Source: Eledone cirrhosa (lineage: Eukaryota). Taken from it: a DNA stretch of 64,000 bases. Under the pieces are notes generated by a model. It did no database searches. It was not told the origin of the DNA and was given only the letters and a program-made list of their open reading frames with translations. The DNA lies in contig OZ024742.1 of the NCBI GenBank assembly GCA_964016885.1, positions 12,462,001 through 12,526,000 on the forward strand, written 5' to 3'. The translations under genes were made by a program, and so were the position numbers. Positions within the stretch are counted from its first letter, which is position 1, and every line of letters begins with the position of its first letter. Below, piece by piece: positions 9,275 through 17,109 of this stretch.

Positions 9275-9600
9275 GACCCCGACGGCAGAGCTCAATCTAT
9301 TTCGATGGCTATTTCTGGACTCAAATAGTCTACTCTACTACCCTAAGTATTGAGTACTCTGGTGCGTTATTGTCCATCTGGTTCCTTACCACAACTCCTT
9401 CGTTATATATATATATATATATATAACGAAGGAAATGTGGTAAGGAACCAGGTGGACCATAACGCACCAAAGTACTCAATACTTGAGGTAGTAGAGTGGG
9501 TAATAGGAACTAGTGAGAATTAGCCATCGAAACGTCGGAACTAATGAGAATTAGCCGTCGAAACGGCTTGAGCTCAGCTGTCGGGGTCTTACTGGTTCCT
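9275..9600. mobile_element. Rearranged/inverted fragments of the hammerhead-bearing PLE pseudo-LTR family found at 54357-56625
   Basis: GAATTAGCCGTCGAAACGGCTTGAGCTCAGCTGTCGGGGTC and GTGGTAAGGAACCAGGTGGACCATAACGCACCAAAGTACTCAATAC match 56490-56625 in both orientations. Confidence 0.8.
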
Positions 9601-9760
9601 ATATATATATATATATATATGAAAAGTGTAATTTTCTACACAAAACGAAGGTTATAGAGAAAATTGAGGTTGGTAATGGCACATGGAATATATAAGAGAC
9701 AGAATACTTTTTTGTGAAAAAACATAATTTTATAAGGTAAGGAAATAATAAAGGGTATAA

Positions 9761-9808
9761 AAAATGACCGGTTTCGATGGGTCTGCAAAAGCCATCTTTT
9801 CAAATGTT
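9761..9808 (-). ncRNA. Minimal type I hammerhead ribozyme (U3:A8 core variant) in the PLE 3' pseudo-LTR
   Basis: Minus strand: AACAU-UUGAAAA-GAUGG(…)CCAUC-GAAA-CCGG-UC-AUUUU; palindromic stem III ACCGGU; GUC cleavage triplet. Confidence 0.7.
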
Positions 9809-10170
9809 GATTAATATTAAGAAAAATTAATAATACGAAGAGTTAAAATTTGAGATTTGAAAATTCAAGTATAAAATTCATTGTGGGATTTCATAGCAGT
9901 TTTCATCTAGGTAGCAACAACAGATTGACTGCTGTGTCCCTTTCTGGTGGTGAATGAGAAGTTATTTGGGGTGTGGGTTATTTTATAAAGGTCAGATTTA
10001 GCAATCACCAACTGGCCAGCTGCTGGTCAGTGAGGGGGTGGAAGCAATATACATACACATATCTTCCTGTGGTGGGTAGGAGAATGGAGCGTGATAGAAA
10101 GGGATTTAGTGCACTTAAACCTATATATACACACATACCTTCATCCACACATACATACATATACATATAC

Positions 10171-10209
<39 letters not shown>

Positions 10210-10274
10210 CACACATACATACACACACACATACATATACATACACACATACACACACACACATATATACACAT

Positions 10275-10325
<51 letters not shown>

Positions 10326-10356
10326 TATATATACATACACATACATCCAGATACAC

Positions 10357-10399
<43 letters not shown>

Positions 10400-10402
10400 C
10401 AC

Positions 10403-10440
<38 letters not shown>

Positions 10441-10972
10441 CCACACATACATACACACACACACACACATATATATATATACATACACACATACAAACAT
10501 ACACACACACACACATATATATACACACATACACACACATATATATACACACACACACACACACGCACACACAATACATACATCCACATGCACACACATA
10601 CACACACACACATATACACATACATACACCCACACACAGAGAAATGGCCTCCAAATATATATATATATATATACATACAGACACATATATTTTTTCCATA
10701 ATATAAGAAGTTGGGACAGTGAAATTAAAATACAAGTCATTCTGATCACATTGAGTTCTTCATGTAGATTGGGCCCCGCAACCGACAGTGGTGAATTCTG
10801 TGTGCGCATATATATATAGATATATGTGTGTGCACGTGCAGGGTTTAACATGGATGTGTTGGTCACACAAAGGCATGGTCTGTCAATGAATAAACCTGAT
10901 TCTACAGAATTGGTCTCTGGTCTTTAATAGTAGTGATTCCGTGCGTATGTGTGTTTATATTTTATGACAATT

Positions 10973-13249
10973 CTATTGGGGTGATAACCCGTTTAGTTTT
11001 GGTTTAAATTTGTTAAGGAATAGATTTTCTTTGTTTATTCTTTGTTGCTGTGTGAACGAATCTGAGCACTTGTAGAAGGGGAAGATTTTAAAGTTGGGTA
11101 GTGTCATTCCTGCGCACTTCGCAATATGGCTGCTCAAGGGGATTTTTCTTGTGTTAGCGTCCCGGATTTGTTGGCGGTGGATGGTCATTCTTTTGCGTAA
11201 TGAGGTGCCCGTCTGTCCTATGTAGTTGTGTTTGCACCCACCGCAAGTTATTGCGTAAATCAAGTTCTCCGAGTTGCAGGTGAAATTGTTTTTTACTGTA
11301 AATGTTTGGCCATCTTTGAATGTAAATGTTTGTCCTTCAGTGAGGTAGAGGCACGTTCCACACTTTGTTCTACCACATTTGGTAACTGTAGGGTTGAGGA
11401 TTGGTTTGGGTATATTTGGTCCAGTGAGAATGCGTTTAAGTGATTTGGGTTGTCTTTTACTTTTAAGGATCTTGTGTGTTTCAAGAATAGAGTTCATTTT
11501 TACATCTTTAAGTAGGATGGGGAGGTTTTTGTGTAGGTGATCAAACATTTCGGTATTTCTGGGGTTGAAAGTGGATACATATGGCAGGGTGTTGAGTGTG
11601 GTTTTCTGTTTTGGATTGTTAAGTTGATGGGGATTTAGGTGTTTTGCCCTGTCTATTCCATTGTTGATTATTTCAAGTGGAAAGGCTCTTAAGATAAGGG
11701 TGTCTTTTAGTTCCTTTAGTCTTTGCTCCCGTTTAGGTGGATCTGATACTATGGTACATATACGTTTGGCCAAATTGTAAGGAATGTTAAGTTTTGTATG
11801 TTTTGGGTGACTTGATGTGAAAAAGAGGTATTGCTTGGAATCTGTGGGTTTATAGAATATATCTGTATCTAATTTCCCGTCTATTACAGAGATGAGAATA
11901 TCCAAGAAGGCTAATTCCTTAGGATTGGATTCCATTGTGAATTGTATGTTATTATCTATGTTGTTTATCATGTTTTTAAACGTAGTAAGTGAGTTCATGT
12001 CTTCTTGCCATAGGATAAAGCAGTCGTCTAGATATCTTTTCCAATTGGCTTTGAGGTGTGTGTGGAAAGAGTCTCCAAATAAGAGAAGGGACTGACTGTA
12101 TATTTGTTGTTCATGGAATCCCATGACTAGGTTGGCATATGTGGGTGCTACTTTCGTGCCCATTGCCGTACCTGATACTTGTCTGTATGTTGAACCATTG
12201 AATGTGAAGTAGTTATTTTGTAGGATAAAGCGGAGTCCGTCAGTGATAAAATCTGTGTTGATGCGTGTCGGTATTTCTGATGGGTGTGTGTTAAGCCAGT
12301 ATTGGACTGCTGTTATTCCATAGTTGTGGGGTATGTTTGTGTAGAGGTTTATTACGTCAAAGGAGACAAGAATTGTATTTGCACTTACTGTTTTAGGGAG
12401 GTGTTTCAGCATGTCAAGGTCATCTCGTATGTAGCTCTGTATATGTTGTAGAAAGGGTTTCAGTAGGATGTCCAGAAAGTTGCTAAGTCTGTGGGTTTCA
12501 CATGCAGGGCCTGCTATAATTGGCCTGAGTTTTAGGTCTTCTGGTGGTGTTAGTTCAATGTAATTGTTGGTTGAGGTGTCACATGCATCGTTTATGGGTT
12601 TACATTTGTGGAGTTTCGGTAAGCCGTAAAAAGAGCTTGTATTGCATTTGAAGTGGCTTATATAGTTAAACTCTTTTGTGGTTAAGCTGTTGCGGTATTT
12701 ATTCAGTAAGGTCAAAAGGTTCCCCATTGTTTTGGTGTGTTTGTAGTTTTCTGTTTTTTCATAGTATGTGTTGTTTTCTAAAATGTTATGTGCGAGGGTC
12801 CTATAGTAGTCCGTATTCATAATGACAACAGTACTGCCTTTATCGGCTTCTTTGATAGTTATCTCAGGGTTGTTTCTAAGTGTGAATAATTCTTCCCATT
12901 CGTGTGTAGATAGGTTTGATTTCGTGTGTTTATTTGTAATTTTTTCATAGGGAAAGTTGGTGATGTGTTCGCAGTACGTGTCCAGTGCTTTATTTCTTCC
13001 CTTTTGTGGGCAGAAATTGCTTTTATTTCTAACCAGTGATTCGTCTTCAGTGTTGGTGTCGTTGTGGAAGAATTCCGTTAGTCGCAGCTTTCGGCAGTAT
13101 TCCATGATGTCATCCTTCATTTCGGGGAAGTTTGGTTTACGTGGTGTAGGTGTACATTTCAGGTCCTTACTTAAAATGTTGATTTGTGTGTTGGTTAGAG
13201 GTGTCTTCGAGAGGTTGATTATTTTTGGTTTCTCCTGAGGGGGGGCCAT
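10973..13249 (-). CDS. PLE reverse transcriptase + GIY-YIG endonuclease (758 aa from first Met; frame open at least to 13285)
   Basis: IINLS, ADKG, YGLPKLHK, RPII, SFDVINLYTNIP, GTAMGTKVAPTYANL, RYLDD, HPKH thumb, CxxxxCxxC linker, LIYAITCGGCKHNYIGQTG GIY-YIG. Confidence 0.95.
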   Translation of the reverse strand: MAPPQEKPKIINLSKTPLTNTQINILSKDLKCTPTPRKPNFPEMKDDIMEYCRKLRLTEFFHNDTNTEDESLVRNKSNFCPQKGRNKALDTYCEHITNFPYEKITNKHTKSNLSTHEWEELFTLRNNPEITIKEADKGSTVVIMNTDYYRTLAHNILENNTYYEKTENYKHTKTMGNLLTLLNKYRNSLTTKEFNYISHFKCNTSSFYGLPKLHKCKPINDACDTSTNNYIELTPPEDLKLRPIIAGPACETHRLSNFLDILLKPFLQHIQSYIRDDLDMLKHLPKTVSANTILVSFDVINLYTNIPHNYGITAVQYWLNTHPSEIPTRINTDFITDGLRFILQNNYFTFNGSTYRQVSGTAMGTKVAPTYANLVMGFHEQQIYSQSLLLFGDSFHTHLKANWKRYLDDCFILWQEDMNSLTTFKNMINNIDNNIQFTMESNPKELAFLDILISVIDGKLDTDIFYKPTDSKQYLFFTSSHPKHTKLNIPYNLAKRICTIVSDPPKREQRLKELKDTLILRAFPLEIINNGIDRAKHLNPHQLNNPKQKTTLNTLPYVSTFNPRNTEMFDHLHKNLPILLKDVKMNSILETHKILKSKRQPKSLKRILTGPNIPKPILNPTVTKCGRTKCGTCLYLTEGQTFTFKDGQTFTVKNNFTCNSENLIYAITCGGCKHNYIGQTGTSLRKRMTIHRQQIRDANTRKIPLSSHIAKCAGMTLPNFKIFPFYKCSDSFTQQQRINKENLFLNKFKPKLNGLSPQ

Positions 13250-14485
13250 CGAGTATCCTGGTATTTCAGGCTTTTCCCTAAAAAAGGAATGTAGTTTTGT
13301 GTGTGATTATATTTTGTTGGTCTGTTGCGTGTGGGTCTGTAGCTTGTTGTTTCATGAGGGTGAATGTGATGGTGGGGGTGGTATGTGTTGTGGTTGTTGA
13401 TGAGCAAGGGTTCTGTTGTTGGTTCATGTGGTCTGGGTGCGTTATTTCTGTGGTACAGAGTGTTGAGGCTGGGGGGTTGTCTTTTGTTGGATTGAGGGTG
13501 ATGTCTGGTGTGGTTGTGGGTAAGTTCTGTTGTGATTTCAAGTGGTCTGGTCGGATTTCTTCTGACGAATGTGGTGTGTGTGTTGTGAGTTGGATCTATG
13601 TTATTTCGTCGTTGGTTTATGTAGGGGGCATTTCTACGGAAACCTGTGTTGTGGTGGTTGGGTGTGTTTCTTTTGGTGTAGTTGGCCGTATTTGGTTTGT
13701 GTTGGTGGGGGATGTGCCTGTGGTTAGTGTGTGTTGGGTTTGGTGGTGTAAATGTGTCTGTTGTAGTTCTTGTTATGTTCAAATGCTTTATAAAGGGGTT
13801 ACCTGTTTGGTGCGTCCTTTTAAAGTCTTCTTCATATTTGAGGAACCAGTTTTCGGATTTTTCCCACCGTTTAAGGGAAATAGTTTCTGCATTCTCGCAG
13901 TCCTGTTTCCACGATTTGATTAAATTTTGTAGGGTTGTTCCCTCGGCCTTTTTAGTGCATTCTTCCTCCATATTTTTATCAGTATCCTTATACTCTTGCT
14001 CGTTTGAGGTGGCCCTTAATTTTAGGAGTTCTATTTCCATGTTTATCCTGTTGAGTGACATTTGTTCACGGAGTTTTCTTTCTGGTTCAGGTTCGTTTGT
14101 AATATGCTTTATTTGGAATTTACGTGGTAAAACTATCGGTGTTGAGTTAATCCATTTTTGGTAAATTCCAGCTTTATTGAGGTTTTTTTATCATATTCCA
14201 GAAAGTGAATTTTCTGGTTTTTAGATGTTTTTTCCAGAGGTGTCCCATTTGGTTTTTGATATGGAGCAATGTCGTTTGTTCTGTGTTGGTATTCATAAGT
14301 TTTTCGATGGAGTTGCATACGTTTTGAACGTTTAAATAAATTTGGTTGTCAGTCGGTGTGGTGGTTTGGGGTATATCCTGTTTTTTTGTCAGAATGGTGA
14401 GTTTTCCATTTATCTCTTTTAGGATTTTCAGGATTTCCTCATTGATATTGGAGTTTGAAGTTGTGTTGTCTTGTTCCAGTGCCAT
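13219..14485 (-). CDS. PLE upstream ORF (~420 aa; helical N-terminal half, H/T/N/P-rich C-terminal half), interrupted by one extra base in a homopolymer
   Basis: Track ORFs 14174-14485 and 13219-14061 join into one frame (…WNMIKNLNKAGIYQKWINSTPIVLPRKFQIKHITNEPEPERKLREQMSLNR…) if one T is removed from 14183-14189. Confidence 0.7.
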
Positions 14486-14727
14486 TTTCCGGATTTGCGT
14501 AGGTTAGTATATATGAAAAGTGTAATTTTCTACACAAAACGAAGGTTATAGAGAAAATTGAGGTTGGTAATGGCACATGGAATATATAAGAGACAGAATA
14601 CTTTTTTGTGAAAAAACATAATTTTATAAGGTAAGGAAATAATAAAGGGTATGTGTGTGTGTGTATGTGTGTATGTATATGTATGTGTGTGTGTATGTAT
14701 GTGTGTATATGTATATATATATATATA

Positions 14728-14760
<33 letters not shown>

Positions 14761-15106
14761 GTATGTGTGGATGAAGGTATGTGTGTATATATAGGTGTAA
14801 GTGCACTAAATCCCTTTCTATCACGCTCCATTCTCCTACCCACCACAGGAAGATATGTGTATGTATATTGCTTCCACCACCTCACTGACCAGCAGCTGGC
14901 CAGTTGGTGATTGCTAAATCTGACCTTTATAAAATAACCCACACCCCAAATAACTTCTCATTCACTACCAGAAAGGGACACAGCAGTCAACCTGTTGTTG
15001 CTACCTAGATGAAAACTGCTATGAAATCCCACAATGAATTTTATACTTGAATTTTCAAATCTCAAATTTTAACTCTTCGTATTATTAATTGTTCTTAATA
15101 TTAATC

Positions 15107-15154
15107 AACATTTGAAAAGATGGCTTTTGCAGACCCATCGAAACCGGTCATTTT
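15107..15154 (+). ncRNA. Hammerhead ribozyme copy in the inverted 5' pseudo-LTR of the PLE
   Basis: TTGAAAA 15112-15118, GATGG/CCATC stem II, GAAA 15140-15143, CCGG, TC 15148-15149. Confidence 0.7.
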
Positions 15155-15252
15155 TTATACCCTTTATTATTTCCTTACCTTATAAAATTATGTTTTTGCA
15201 CAAAAAAAATATTCTGTCTCTTATATATTCCATGTGCCATTACCAACCTCAA

Positions 15253-15316
<64 letters not shown>

Positions 15317-15385: not shown

Positions 15386-15504
15386 GTTACACAACAGTTA
15401 GTTCACCATACTGAGAACAATTGTTTCACCTGAACGGATCCGAGCTGAGGATCCGCTAAGGTGAAACAATTGTCCCCGGTATGGTCAACTAACTGTTGTG
15501 TAAC
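15386..15504. repeat. ~120-bp hairpin containing a canonical minimal hammerhead (15440-15479, +)
   Basis: GTTACACAACAGTTAGTT…AACTAACTGTTGTGTAAC arms; CCGAG-CTGAGGA-TCCGCTAAGGT-GAAA-CAATTG-TC-CCCGG. Confidence 0.75.
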
Positions 15505-15787: not shown

Positions 15788-15877
15788 TGTAGAGGTTATA
15801 TTTATTTTGTTGGGATACAACAAGCAAAATATTTTTATAACTGATATAAAGCACTCAACAAATTATTGGAGTAAATA

Positions 15878-16228
15878 TACAATATATTAACAAATAGAAA
15901 CTATATTTATAAAACCATATTTATTTCATTATACATATTTCAAGGGCCACCAAGGCAAACTATGGTGCGCTTTCATCAAATAAAATATAATATAGGTTAG
16001 TTTTATAAATAAATATTTACATACCGTGAAAAAATGCAACCATCCTGGAGATTCCAACCAGAATGGTTGCATTTTTTCAGGGTATGTCAGTATTTATTTA
16101 TAAAACTAACCTATATTATATTTTATTTGATGAAAGCGCACCATAGTTTGCCTTGGTGGCCCTTGAAATATGTATAATGAAATAAATATGGTTTTATAAA
16201 TATAGTTTCCATTTGTTAATATATTGTA
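15878..16228. repeat. 350-bp near-perfect foldback (171-bp arms, 9-nt loop), each arm with a hammerhead-like motif
   Basis: 15878-16048 is the reverse complement of 16058-16228 with few mismatches. Confidence 0.9.
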
Positions 16229-17109
16229 AATATATATATATATATGTATGTTCTGTTTCTACATTAGATCCACCCTAAGTTATAGTGTATTTTACTTATT
16301 CATCAACTTAGAGTTATCACCAGTTTCATTTCTCTATATATTAGTCTTAACATCTAAATAGTTTGAGAAATGTTACCAACTTTATGCTCATAAAAGGCTT
16401 CAAAACCCTAAACTGACACAAGATATTTTATACCTAAATCCATGTGAGACACAAGGAAGGTAATGGTATATTTTCTGATAAAATTATGTACAACGTATAA
16501 CCTGAACGGATTAATGTGATAATTTCTGTTAATATAATCCCATATGATAATGACATTATTGTTGCCTACAAGAAATATTAATATATTAATAAATTTAGTA
16601 GATATAGAAGCTTTCGTCGTATTTGACTACAGAAATTAGCCTGCTACTGGGGTTTAAAATCCTCTAAATGATGTTAAAGCCTAGTATCAGGTTAAGTTCT
16701 TTAGTCAAAATACTGCGAAAGTTTCTATTTCTACTAAATTTCAAACTTCCCTTAGTGTTTTCAAAACTAAACGCTTGTTTGAATATATTAATAAATAATG
16801 AACTGGCAGAGTCGTTAGAGAATGAATTGAAATAAAAACAGTGTTTTGCGCTGTTTGTTCCAACTGCCTCTACTCAAATCTAAAATCCCTTCGACGTAAA
16901 ATATACCTTTCATCGTCTTGGGGTCATTAAAGAACCATATTGGCAGAATGTTTAGTGTTGCATTGTTATTCTTGTAGATGTAAATGTTCTTCACCGGTTC
17001 CCAGAACTCAGACAACGGAGTTCCACACAACCTGTATAGTAGGACTATTTCATCCTTTATGCGAGCGGTGAAAAGATCTAGTTGAGTCTAGTCAGATCCA
17101 AGTATCATC

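What the first reader, a model, noticed from the sequence alone, without database searches (positions are those of the whole stretch)
9621..15260. Penelope element whose 5' end coincides with the cleavage site of a U3:A8-variant hammerhead
Seen: the pseudo-LTR (9761-9808 minus; inverted copy 15107-15154 plus) folds as a minimal type I hammerhead: UUGAAAA core, GAUGG/CCAUC stem II, GAAA, palindromic ACCGGU stem III and GUC triplet. The core replaces the usual C3:G8 pair with U3:A8, so a CUGANGA search would miss it. The short direct repeat heading the element (14652 down to 14515) starts at the position equivalent to 9758, 7 nt downstream of the predicted cut (9766/9765). Established: PLE pseudo-LTRs carry minimal hammerheads that can act as dimers through palindromic stem III, and positions 3:8 form a tertiary Watson-Crick pair that tolerates compensatory swaps. 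Inference: self-cleavage defines the 5' end of the reverse-transcribed RNA, and the junction with the inverted repeat records it.
Basis: partly seen in the sequence, partly recalled or inferred. Interest (0 to 1): 0.75.

Follow-up and report, generated by a model that had tools for sequence, protein, structure and literature searches.

The report
Hammerhead cut footprint in Penelope copies
This is one copy of a young, known type of jumping gene whose copies begin far more often than chance just after the predicted cut site of its built-in self-cutting RNA, which likely records real self-cutting in the germ line, although most copies run straight through the site uncut.

Summary
The sequence observation holds. 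The locus is a young Neptune-type Penelope-like element with a minimal hammerhead (U3:A8 core, palindromic ACCGGU, GUC), and its 145-nt upstream repeat starts 7-10 nt after the predicted cut. U3:A8 is already published for Schistosoma Penelope elements.

In about 940 Mb of the genome, 35 arms (28 loci) begin in 9756-9767, against 2 in the 15 nt upstream. AT-rich control windows give 0.45-0.6 events per nt; the peak gives 2.3. A cliff of the same shape lies at the predicted transcription start (9955), in sequence that is not AT-rich, so such cliffs likely mark RNA 5' ends. One tandem array starts at the cut, and one two-armed copy has a 9-nt insert exactly there.

Cleavage is not the rule: only 7 of 87 ORF-start loci begin there and 67 run through the intact ribozyme. 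Stem I has only 2 Watson-Crick pairs, no 3:8 covariation was found, and no RNA run was listed. An earlier scan note reports the same pattern in another genome. Verdict: known element and ribozyme, with new indirect evidence of occasional cleavage in vivo.

The parts
9600..9620 (.). (TA)n microsatellite into which the long arm ends; no target-site duplication can be read
   Evidence: other copies also end in (TA)n
9614..10972 (-). 3' untranslated region and 3' pseudo-LTR, with a (CA/TA)n block at about 10116-10700
9614..9655 (-). 42-nt 'tail': present on one arm, absent on the other (arms end at 9614 or at 9656/9653); likely two reverse-transcription start sites
   Evidence: tail mechanism from PMC11167929
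9761..9808 (-). minimal type I hammerhead motif: U3:A8 core, 5-bp stem II, palindromic ACCGGU, GUC triplet, 2-bp stem I
   Evidence: 2,104 genomic matches to a core pattern
9765..9766 (-). predicted self-cleavage site; 5' ends of copies pile up at 9756-9767 and drop off upstream
9952..9957 (-). initiator-like TCATTC, predicted +1 at 9955; second cliff of 5' ends
   Evidence: sequence (consensus recalled)
9981..9987 (-). TATA-box-like TATAAAA, 32 nt upstream of the predicted +1
   Evidence: sequence; inference
10973..13306 (-). 777-aa open frame: reverse transcriptase, CX4CxxC linker, C-terminal GIY-YIG endonuclease with CCHH motif
   Evidence: (RVT_1 E 9.6e-7, 29.1 bits against cut-off 29.6)
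13279..13285 (-). U UUU UUA heptamer in the overlap of ORF1 and the RT frame; candidate -1 frameshift site
   Evidence: T6-A-G3 in 29 of 30 loci
13219..14485 (-). ORF1 (421 aa in 17 of 30 copies); this copy is frameshifted near codon 100, in an A-run at about 14183-14189
14508..14652 (-). 145-nt upstream direct repeat (equals 9614-9758); begins 7-10 nt after the predicted cut and lacks the ribozyme and the predicted promoter
14650..14652 (.). 3-nt microhomology (TAT) joining the two arms 5' to 5'
14650..15260 (+). inverted, 5'-truncated arm (equals 10265 down to 9656), without the tail
15107..15154 (+). second, uncut copy of the hammerhead motif; predicted cut 15149/15150
15257..15316 (.). (TC)n then (TA)n at the end of the inverted arm
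   Evidence: same ending in most tail-less arms

Best explanation
This is a young Neptune-type Penelope-like element whose copies show an excess of 5' ends at and just after the predicted hammerhead cut, likely because the ribozyme cuts a minority of the RNA templates and reverse transcriptase runs off the cut end. Shown: two arms joined 5' to 5', ending at two fixed 3' sites 42 nt apart in (TA)n, and cliffs of 5' ends at 9756-9767 and 9952-9958. Inferred: the endonuclease opens both strands of a (TA)n site; two cDNAs start at the two internal sites; each runs until it falls off or reaches the RNA's 5' end (cap at 9955 or ribozyme cut at 9765); the two cDNA ends are trimmed by 0-20 nt and joined by microhomology. 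Predicted: cutting needs two ribozymes paired through ACCGGU, probably with protein help, and is inefficient. A cut in the upstream pLTR would give ORF copies without a promoter, as here; a cut in the downstream pLTR would give short fold-back stubs. The chance that this window's own junction came from a cut is about 0.6.
For: script on fetched loci in C1, C2 and the first 81 Mb of C3: 35 arms in 28 loci at 9756-9767, 2 at 9768-9782 (binomial p 2e-8). AT-rich windows read by eye give 28 events in 62 nt and 35 in 60 nt; Poisson p 6e-12 and 2e-9. The hottest composition-matched TATAAAA site gives 10 loci in 9 nt; p 6e-5 at a rate of 1.0 per nt, slightly below the measured rate. Same shape at the predicted start: 12 arms in 10 loci at 9952-9958 against 2 at 9959-9971 (p 8e-4), AT 0.57. 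ORF-start loci: 6 of 48 resolved junctions in the cut zone against 1.3 expected, window copy left out (p 0.002). L071 is a two-armed array of a 455-nt unit starting at 9765/9766. L091 has a 9-nt insert between 9766 and 9765 in both arms, the only non-duplication insert I saw among the 43 rows. Stronger predicted hairpins show weaker pile-ups at their 3' feet. A sister family at 57% protein identity keeps U3:A8 and ACCGGU with a different stem II, and shows 30 junction rows in the 20 nt at or after its cut against 16 in the 29 nt before (by eye, p 7e-4).
Against: The mode is 9760 (9 arms), not 9765 (3 arms). The zone is 92% AT and lies at the 3' foot of a predicted -9 kcal/mol hairpin. TATA and palindromic sites elsewhere also attract junctions (8 arms at 9690-9694; 8 rows at 9815). 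67 of 87 ORF-start loci run through the intact motif and 13 start further downstream. Stem I is 2 bp and the active fold is not the predicted minimum-energy fold as monomer or dimer. No 3:8 covariation among copies. The sister family reads GCAA for the conserved GAAA in 21 of 24 arms, its boundary is blurred (4 rows 3-4 nt upstream of the cut), its 3' flank is also AT-rich and no downstream control was run. In the anole element, ribozyme mutants inserted normally in vitro and no RNA reads ended at the cut (PMC11167929). The 12-nt bin was chosen.
Confidence: 0.68

Rival explanations
1. Reverse transcriptase stalls at the 3' foot of the folded ribozyme region (alternative hairpin or dimer helix) and the arms are joined there; the RNA is not cut.
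For: The predicted hairpin's 3' foot is 9759-9766 and the mode is 9760. Uncut RNA was the main substrate in vitro for the anole element.
Against: Hairpins of -11 to -21 kcal/mol in the same pLTR give smaller pile-ups at their feet: about 5 rows at 9998-10006 against 17 in the cut zone over the same 578 Mb (by eye), and no peak at 9909-9917. The 9955 cliff is not at a hairpin foot. A stall does not explain an array unit or an insert placed exactly at the cut.
Confidence: 0.17
2. The peak is a composition effect: the ATTTTTTATA run favours microhomology joining to (TA)n or to the other arm, or is nicked by the element's AT-preferring endonuclease.
For: AT 0.92 in the peak against 0.40 just upstream. 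TATA and ATTAAT sites are local hot spots. The anole endonuclease prefers ATT, and ATT lies at 9765-9763.
Against: Windows of AT 0.77-0.84, rich in ATT, give 0.45-0.6 events per nt, and the two other TATAAAA sites give about 1.1 per nt or less, against 2.3. The cliff at 9955 lies in sequence of AT 0.5-0.6.
Confidence: 0.12
3. The junction of this locus is an ordinary random 5' truncation, and the ribozyme plays no part in any copy.
For: Most arms end elsewhere. The background would place about a fifth to a quarter of the peak's loci there by chance.
Against: The genome-wide excess is 4-5 fold with p below 1e-8.
Confidence: 0.03

Closest known systems
Neptune-type endonuclease-bearing Penelope-like elements (Craig et al. 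2021, PMC8557442; passages read)
   Same: RT with C-terminal GIY-YIG and CCHH, CX2-5CxxC linker, (TA)n targets, direct pLTR plus adjacent inverted 5'-truncated copy, optional tail, hammerhead in the pLTR
   Different: Two overlapping frames with a U UUU UUA site rather than a single ORF. The tail is 42 nt against the 30-40 described. That paper calls hammerhead function in these elements unclear.
Minimal hammerheads of metazoan PLEs, including the U3-A8 variant of Schistosoma mansoni Cercyon (Cervera and de la Pena 2014, PMC4209133; parts 1-2 of 4 read)
   Same: U3-A8 core (about 1,300 hits there), G10.1-C11.1, palindromic stem III, short stem I (2 bp in Drosophila virilis), proposed dimer action and circular templates
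   Different: No bulged base between A9 and G10.1 here. [quoted passage not shown]
Poseidon of Anolis carolinensis (Frangieh et al. 2024, PMC11167929; parts 1-2 of 4 read)
   Same: Two internal RT start sites that make the tail; both strands cut and extended; ribozyme needing protein
   Different: There the ribozyme was dispensable in vitro and no RNA reads ended at the cut (their Fig. S2B, not seen). Here genomic ends pile up at the predicted cut.
R2 retrotransposon HDV-like ribozyme (Eickbush et al. 2013, PMC3774820; abstract and outline only)
   Same: Works like it for the minority class: self-cleavage sets the RNA 5' end, and variable junctions follow from microhomology priming
   Different: R2 uses an HDV-like fold that frees the element from an rRNA co-transcript. 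Here the fold is a hammerhead, the element has a predicted promoter of its own and cleavage marks only about 7-8% of ends.
Metazoan non-LTR retrozymes (PMC7229834, passages; bioRxiv 10.64898/2026.07.22.740005, part 1 of 5)
   Same: Tandem arrays proposed to come from cut and RtcB-ligated RNA circles; L071 resembles such a product
   Different: The L071 unit holds no ribozyme and includes 303 nt of the element's 5' region and ORF1. The window element is coding.

Membership tests
EN+ Penelope-like element | RT domain with DKG and core motifs | tested here: met
   Pfam RVT_1 E 9.6e-7, just under the curated cut-off; DKG 155, FDV 316, GTAMG 379, YLDD 425
EN+ Penelope-like element | [quoted passage not shown] | tested here: met
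   LIYAITCGGCKHNYIG followed by two histidines, read by eye; no Pfam GIY-YIG hit and no PDB sequence hit
EN+ Penelope-like element | pLTR from partial tandem, adjacent inverted truncated copy, optional tail | tested here: met
EN+ Penelope-like element | single ORF | tested here: not met
   421-aa ORF1 stops at the same codon in 17 of 30 copies and overlaps the RT frame at -1; L132 has both frames open. The cited figure legend allows an ORF1 with a frameshift in some PLE types; I did not see which.
Neptune clade | CX2-5CxxC linker between RT and EN | tested here: met
   CGRTKCGTC at residue 644; Nematis also has such a linker
Neptune clade | insertion into (TA)n | tested here: met
Neptune clade | placement in the RT phylogeny | not tested
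   no reference set was fetched; filed as Neptune-type by motif only
Minimal type I hammerhead of PLEs | core YUGANRA and GAAA with a 3:8 pair, NUH triplet | tested here: met
   UUGAAAA, GAAA, GUC
Minimal type I hammerhead of PLEs | stem II closed by G10.1-C11.1 and palindromic stem III | tested here: met
   GAUGG/CCAUC and ACCGGU; the sister family has a different stem II and the same palindrome
Minimal type I hammerhead of PLEs | stem I able to form | tested here: inconclusive
   pairs outward UA, AU, CU, AU, AU, CU
Minimal type I hammerhead of PLEs | unpaired base between A9 and G10.1 (usual, not obligatory) | tested here: not met
   A9 9797 is followed directly by G10.1 9796
Minimal type I hammerhead of PLEs | 3:8 covariation among copies | tested here: inconclusive
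   100 of 100 listed copies are U3:A8; 4 copies differ at position 8 and none has C3; the family is too young to show it
Minimal type I hammerhead of PLEs | self-cleavage, as a dimer | not testable with these tools
   only indirect genomic evidence

The most novel reading that the evidence does not exclude
The minimal hammerhead cuts Penelope RNA in the germ line and the ends are re-joined into circles that the element's RT copies by rolling circle from both sides of a DNA break. L071 (455-nt unit starting at the cut, arrays on both arms) would be a mis-joined circle. L091 (9 extra nt at the cut in both arms) would be a scarred re-ligation. The many copies that run through an intact ribozyme, 38 of 87 of them past 10065 and beyond the promoter, would be clean re-ligations rather than uncut RNA.
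Probability: 0.3. Interest if true: 0.75.

Novelty: new member of a known kind. Interest (0 to 1): 0.5.

Why it matters
Whether the tiny hammerheads of Penelope-like elements cut in living cells, and what for, is open. In the papers read they cut poorly in vitro, were dispensable for insertion in vitro, left no RNA ends at the cut and may be passengers. A young family with about 2,100 near-identical copies gives a record of template ends, with the predicted transcription start as a built-in control. It suggests occasional cleavage in the germ line whose products are mostly promoterless or stub copies. It names exact positions (9765, 9955, 9656, 9614) for RNA-end mapping and RT run-off assays.

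Tried and rejected
Rfam scan: no hammerhead model among 105 matches, nearly all microsatellite-driven miRNA hits. RNA evidence: no RNA holder listed. The contigs of 4 runs of unrecorded kind showed no changes at core positions 3 or 8 and cannot show ends. Covariation at 3:8: none. A splice acceptor at the peak was rejected because UC, not AG, precedes 9765. Both arms ending in the peak (7 of 28 loci) was not used as evidence, because paired ends are also common in control windows. The 3-nt duplication at the cut in 3 loci was not used, because slippage duplications occur throughout the family. One search was swamped by 9-10 nt length variants and covers only 578 Mb. One search returned nothing because of a header format; one search misplaced junctions at window-specific alleles; one search is the corrected count, and it still places L196 at 9754 where I read 9791. 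PDB sequence search: 0 hits. Two relevant papers (Lunse et al. on dimer cleavage, PMC5785218; Arkhipova et al. 2017 on Terminons, PMC5850863) are not held; I know them only from citing passages. No supplements were read; Fig. S2 of PMC11167929 and the alignments of PMC4209133 may bear on novelty.

Full report
Observation. The minus strand carries U3 9803 to A9 9797, stem II GAUGG/CCAUC, GAAA, ACCGGU and C17 at 9766, so the predicted cut is 9766/9765. The upstream direct repeat (14508-14652) equals 9614-9758. It shares TAT with the inverted arm, so it starts 7-10 nt after the cut. Stem I has two Watson-Crick pairs, and neither monomer nor dimer minimum-energy folds give the active shape. Rfam does not call it.

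What the element is. A 777-aa frame encodes RT, a CX4CxxC linker and a GIY-YIG domain with CCHH, which fits the Neptune type by motif. The family is young: 40 of 151 candidates were scored at 99-100% identity. There are 104 exact matches at the pLTR/5' UTR joint, 2,033 to the 33-mer after the cut and 2,104 to the ribozyme pattern. Insertions are typically two arms joined 5' to 5'; one ends at 9614 and the other at 9656 or 9653, in (TA)n. This matches the Penelope tail, traced to two internal RT start sites in the anole element. U3-A8 was reported in Schistosoma Cercyon elements in 2014, so the variant is not new.

First test: copies with the ORF start. I fetched the loci, counting tandem arrays once; 87 of 88 held the anchor. 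The upstream pLTR began at 9614-9755 in 13, at 9756-9767 in 7 (including this window), at 9768-10065 in 29 and beyond 10065 in 38. Without the window copy, 6 of 48 resolved junctions fall in the 12-nt zone against 1.3 expected (p 0.002). The cut zone is enriched, but 67 of 87 run through the intact motif.

Second test: all arms. I searched with an anchor 3' of the region plus one excluded letter inside a homopolymer further upstream. This lists arms that stop or shift in between, and it catches roughly 70% of truncated arms. One search gave 370 matches and listed 100. In C1, C2 and the first 81 Mb of C3, a script re-found 80 arms in fetched loci, 70 with a junction at or before 9803. I dropped the window copy and L117 (a 3-nt duplication that runs on), and fetched one of three duplicated copies at 9750. 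Arms (loci): 9743-9755, 17 (16); 9756-9767, 35 (28); 9768-9782, 2 (2); 9783-9803, 14 (13).

Controls in the same interval, read by eye: 9797-9858, 34 arms or 28 events in 62 nt (55 of the 100 listed rows); 9683-9742, about 42 arms or 35 events in 60 nt (partly script-checked). The peak is 4-5 times these AT-rich backgrounds (p 6e-12 and 2e-9) and about twice the hottest TATAAAA site (10 loci in 9 nt). Anchors differ, so numbers at risk are not exactly equal, and the bin was chosen. Scaled up, about 150 arms, or 7%, end in the zone.

Built-in control. The pLTR has TATAAAA at 9987-9981 and an initiator-like TCATTC with +1 at 9955 (consensus recalled; Penelope promoters lie in the pLTR). (136 matches, 100 listed) shows the same shape there. 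In the common interval: 9908-9939, 15 arms; 9940-9951, 13; 9952-9958, 12; 9959-9971, 2 (p 8e-4). Over all 100 rows I counted 26 in 9952-9958 by eye. That stretch is only 50-60% AT and is not the foot of a predicted hairpin. If 9955 is the start site, which is untested, an RNA 5' end leaves a cliff with a 10-20 nt downstream shoulder, and the cut site has that shape.

Single events at the exact site. L071 is a two-armed array (7 and 4 anchors) of a 455-nt unit running from 9765 through 9614 and 14507 to 14205, with 1 nt of ambiguity. Two other arrays (L048, L085) do not start at the cut. L091 has 9 extra nt between 9766 and 9765 in both arms, and no other copy among the 43 rows has it. Each is one event.

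Sister family. L129 (57% protein identity) has U3:A8, ACCGGU and a different stem II, which supports a conserved structure, but 21 of 24 arms read GCAA for GAAA. Of the 100 listed rows (745 matches), I counted by eye 30 junctions in the 20 nt at or after its cut and 16 in the 29 nt before; I left out 5 rows at the excluded letter and counted one 5-copy repeat once. The edge is blurred, the flank is AT-rich and no downstream control was run. About 14 partner arms there start near one site about 45 nt upstream of the ribozyme, a likely start site.

Mechanism. Shown: the two-armed anatomy, two 3' ends and two cliffs of 5' ends. Inferred: both strands of a (TA)n site prime cDNA from two internal sites; the cDNAs stop at random, at the cap or at a ribozyme cut, and are joined after trimming. 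Predicted: dimeric, protein-helped, inefficient cleavage. A copy cut in its upstream pLTR, like this one, loses the predicted promoter. Cleavage therefore looks like a side route or brake, unless cut RNA is normally re-joined into circles (the novel case). Stalling at the folded region (0.17) and composition (0.12) remain live: the mode is 9760, at the foot of a weak predicted hairpin in 92% AT sequence.

Novelty. The element type, ribozyme variant, dimer model and tail are known. I found no paper mapping genomic 5' junctions of Penelope elements to the hammerhead cut in seven searches of the held library; two relevant papers are not held and no supplements were read. The closest published parallel is R2 (abstract). 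Earlier scan notes report the same pattern in two of four families of another genome, and pile-ups at the ribozyme's 5' edge in others; these are leads, not support. Score: a new member of a known kind, interest 0.5, because it turns an open question into exact tests.

Noticed in passing
window 13279-13285 (minus); L001-L030, L132: ORF1 (421 aa) overlaps the RT frame at -1 with U UUU UUA GGG, a slippery heptamer of the HIV-1 type (recalled); T6-A-G3 is kept in 29 of 30 loci. Candidate programmed frameshift, already noted by the scan in this genome.
   Followed up: partly
L124-L128, junction at window-equivalent 9704: Five inserts, four of them two-armed, in which unrelated sequence plus a G-run is joined to the element's last 90 nt. 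The G-run matches the native A-run with A-to-G changes, and run X4 holds that form. This suggests edited RNA joined to other RNAs and copied in trans. The L091 insert has a similar G-run.
   Followed up: partly
L048 and L085: Tandem arrays of 173-nt and 184-nt units whose element part ends at the same place, 14454, in two independent loci; unexplained.
   Followed up: no
L129 and L133-L162: Sister family whose hammerhead-like core has GCAA in place of the conserved GAAA in 21 of 24 arms, together with U3:A8; activity unknown.
   Followed up: partly
run X4 laid on 9625-10110: Its contigs differ at 15 A>G and 17 T>C places, a pattern like A-to-I editing; the run's kind is not on record.
   Followed up: no
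window 9330-9498, 15394-15496, 15872-16234: Three further inverted repeats next to the element (the first centred on (TA)n, the last with 177-nt arms at 96%); probably other small mobile elements.
   Followed up: no
L096 minus 1128, L003, L048, L075, L100, L115, L124 flanks: Other hammerhead-like motifs with C3:G8 cores in unrelated repeats in the fetched flanks.
   Followed up: no
window 5004-about 6900: 28-nt tandem repeat of at least 50 copies upstream of the element.
   Followed up: no
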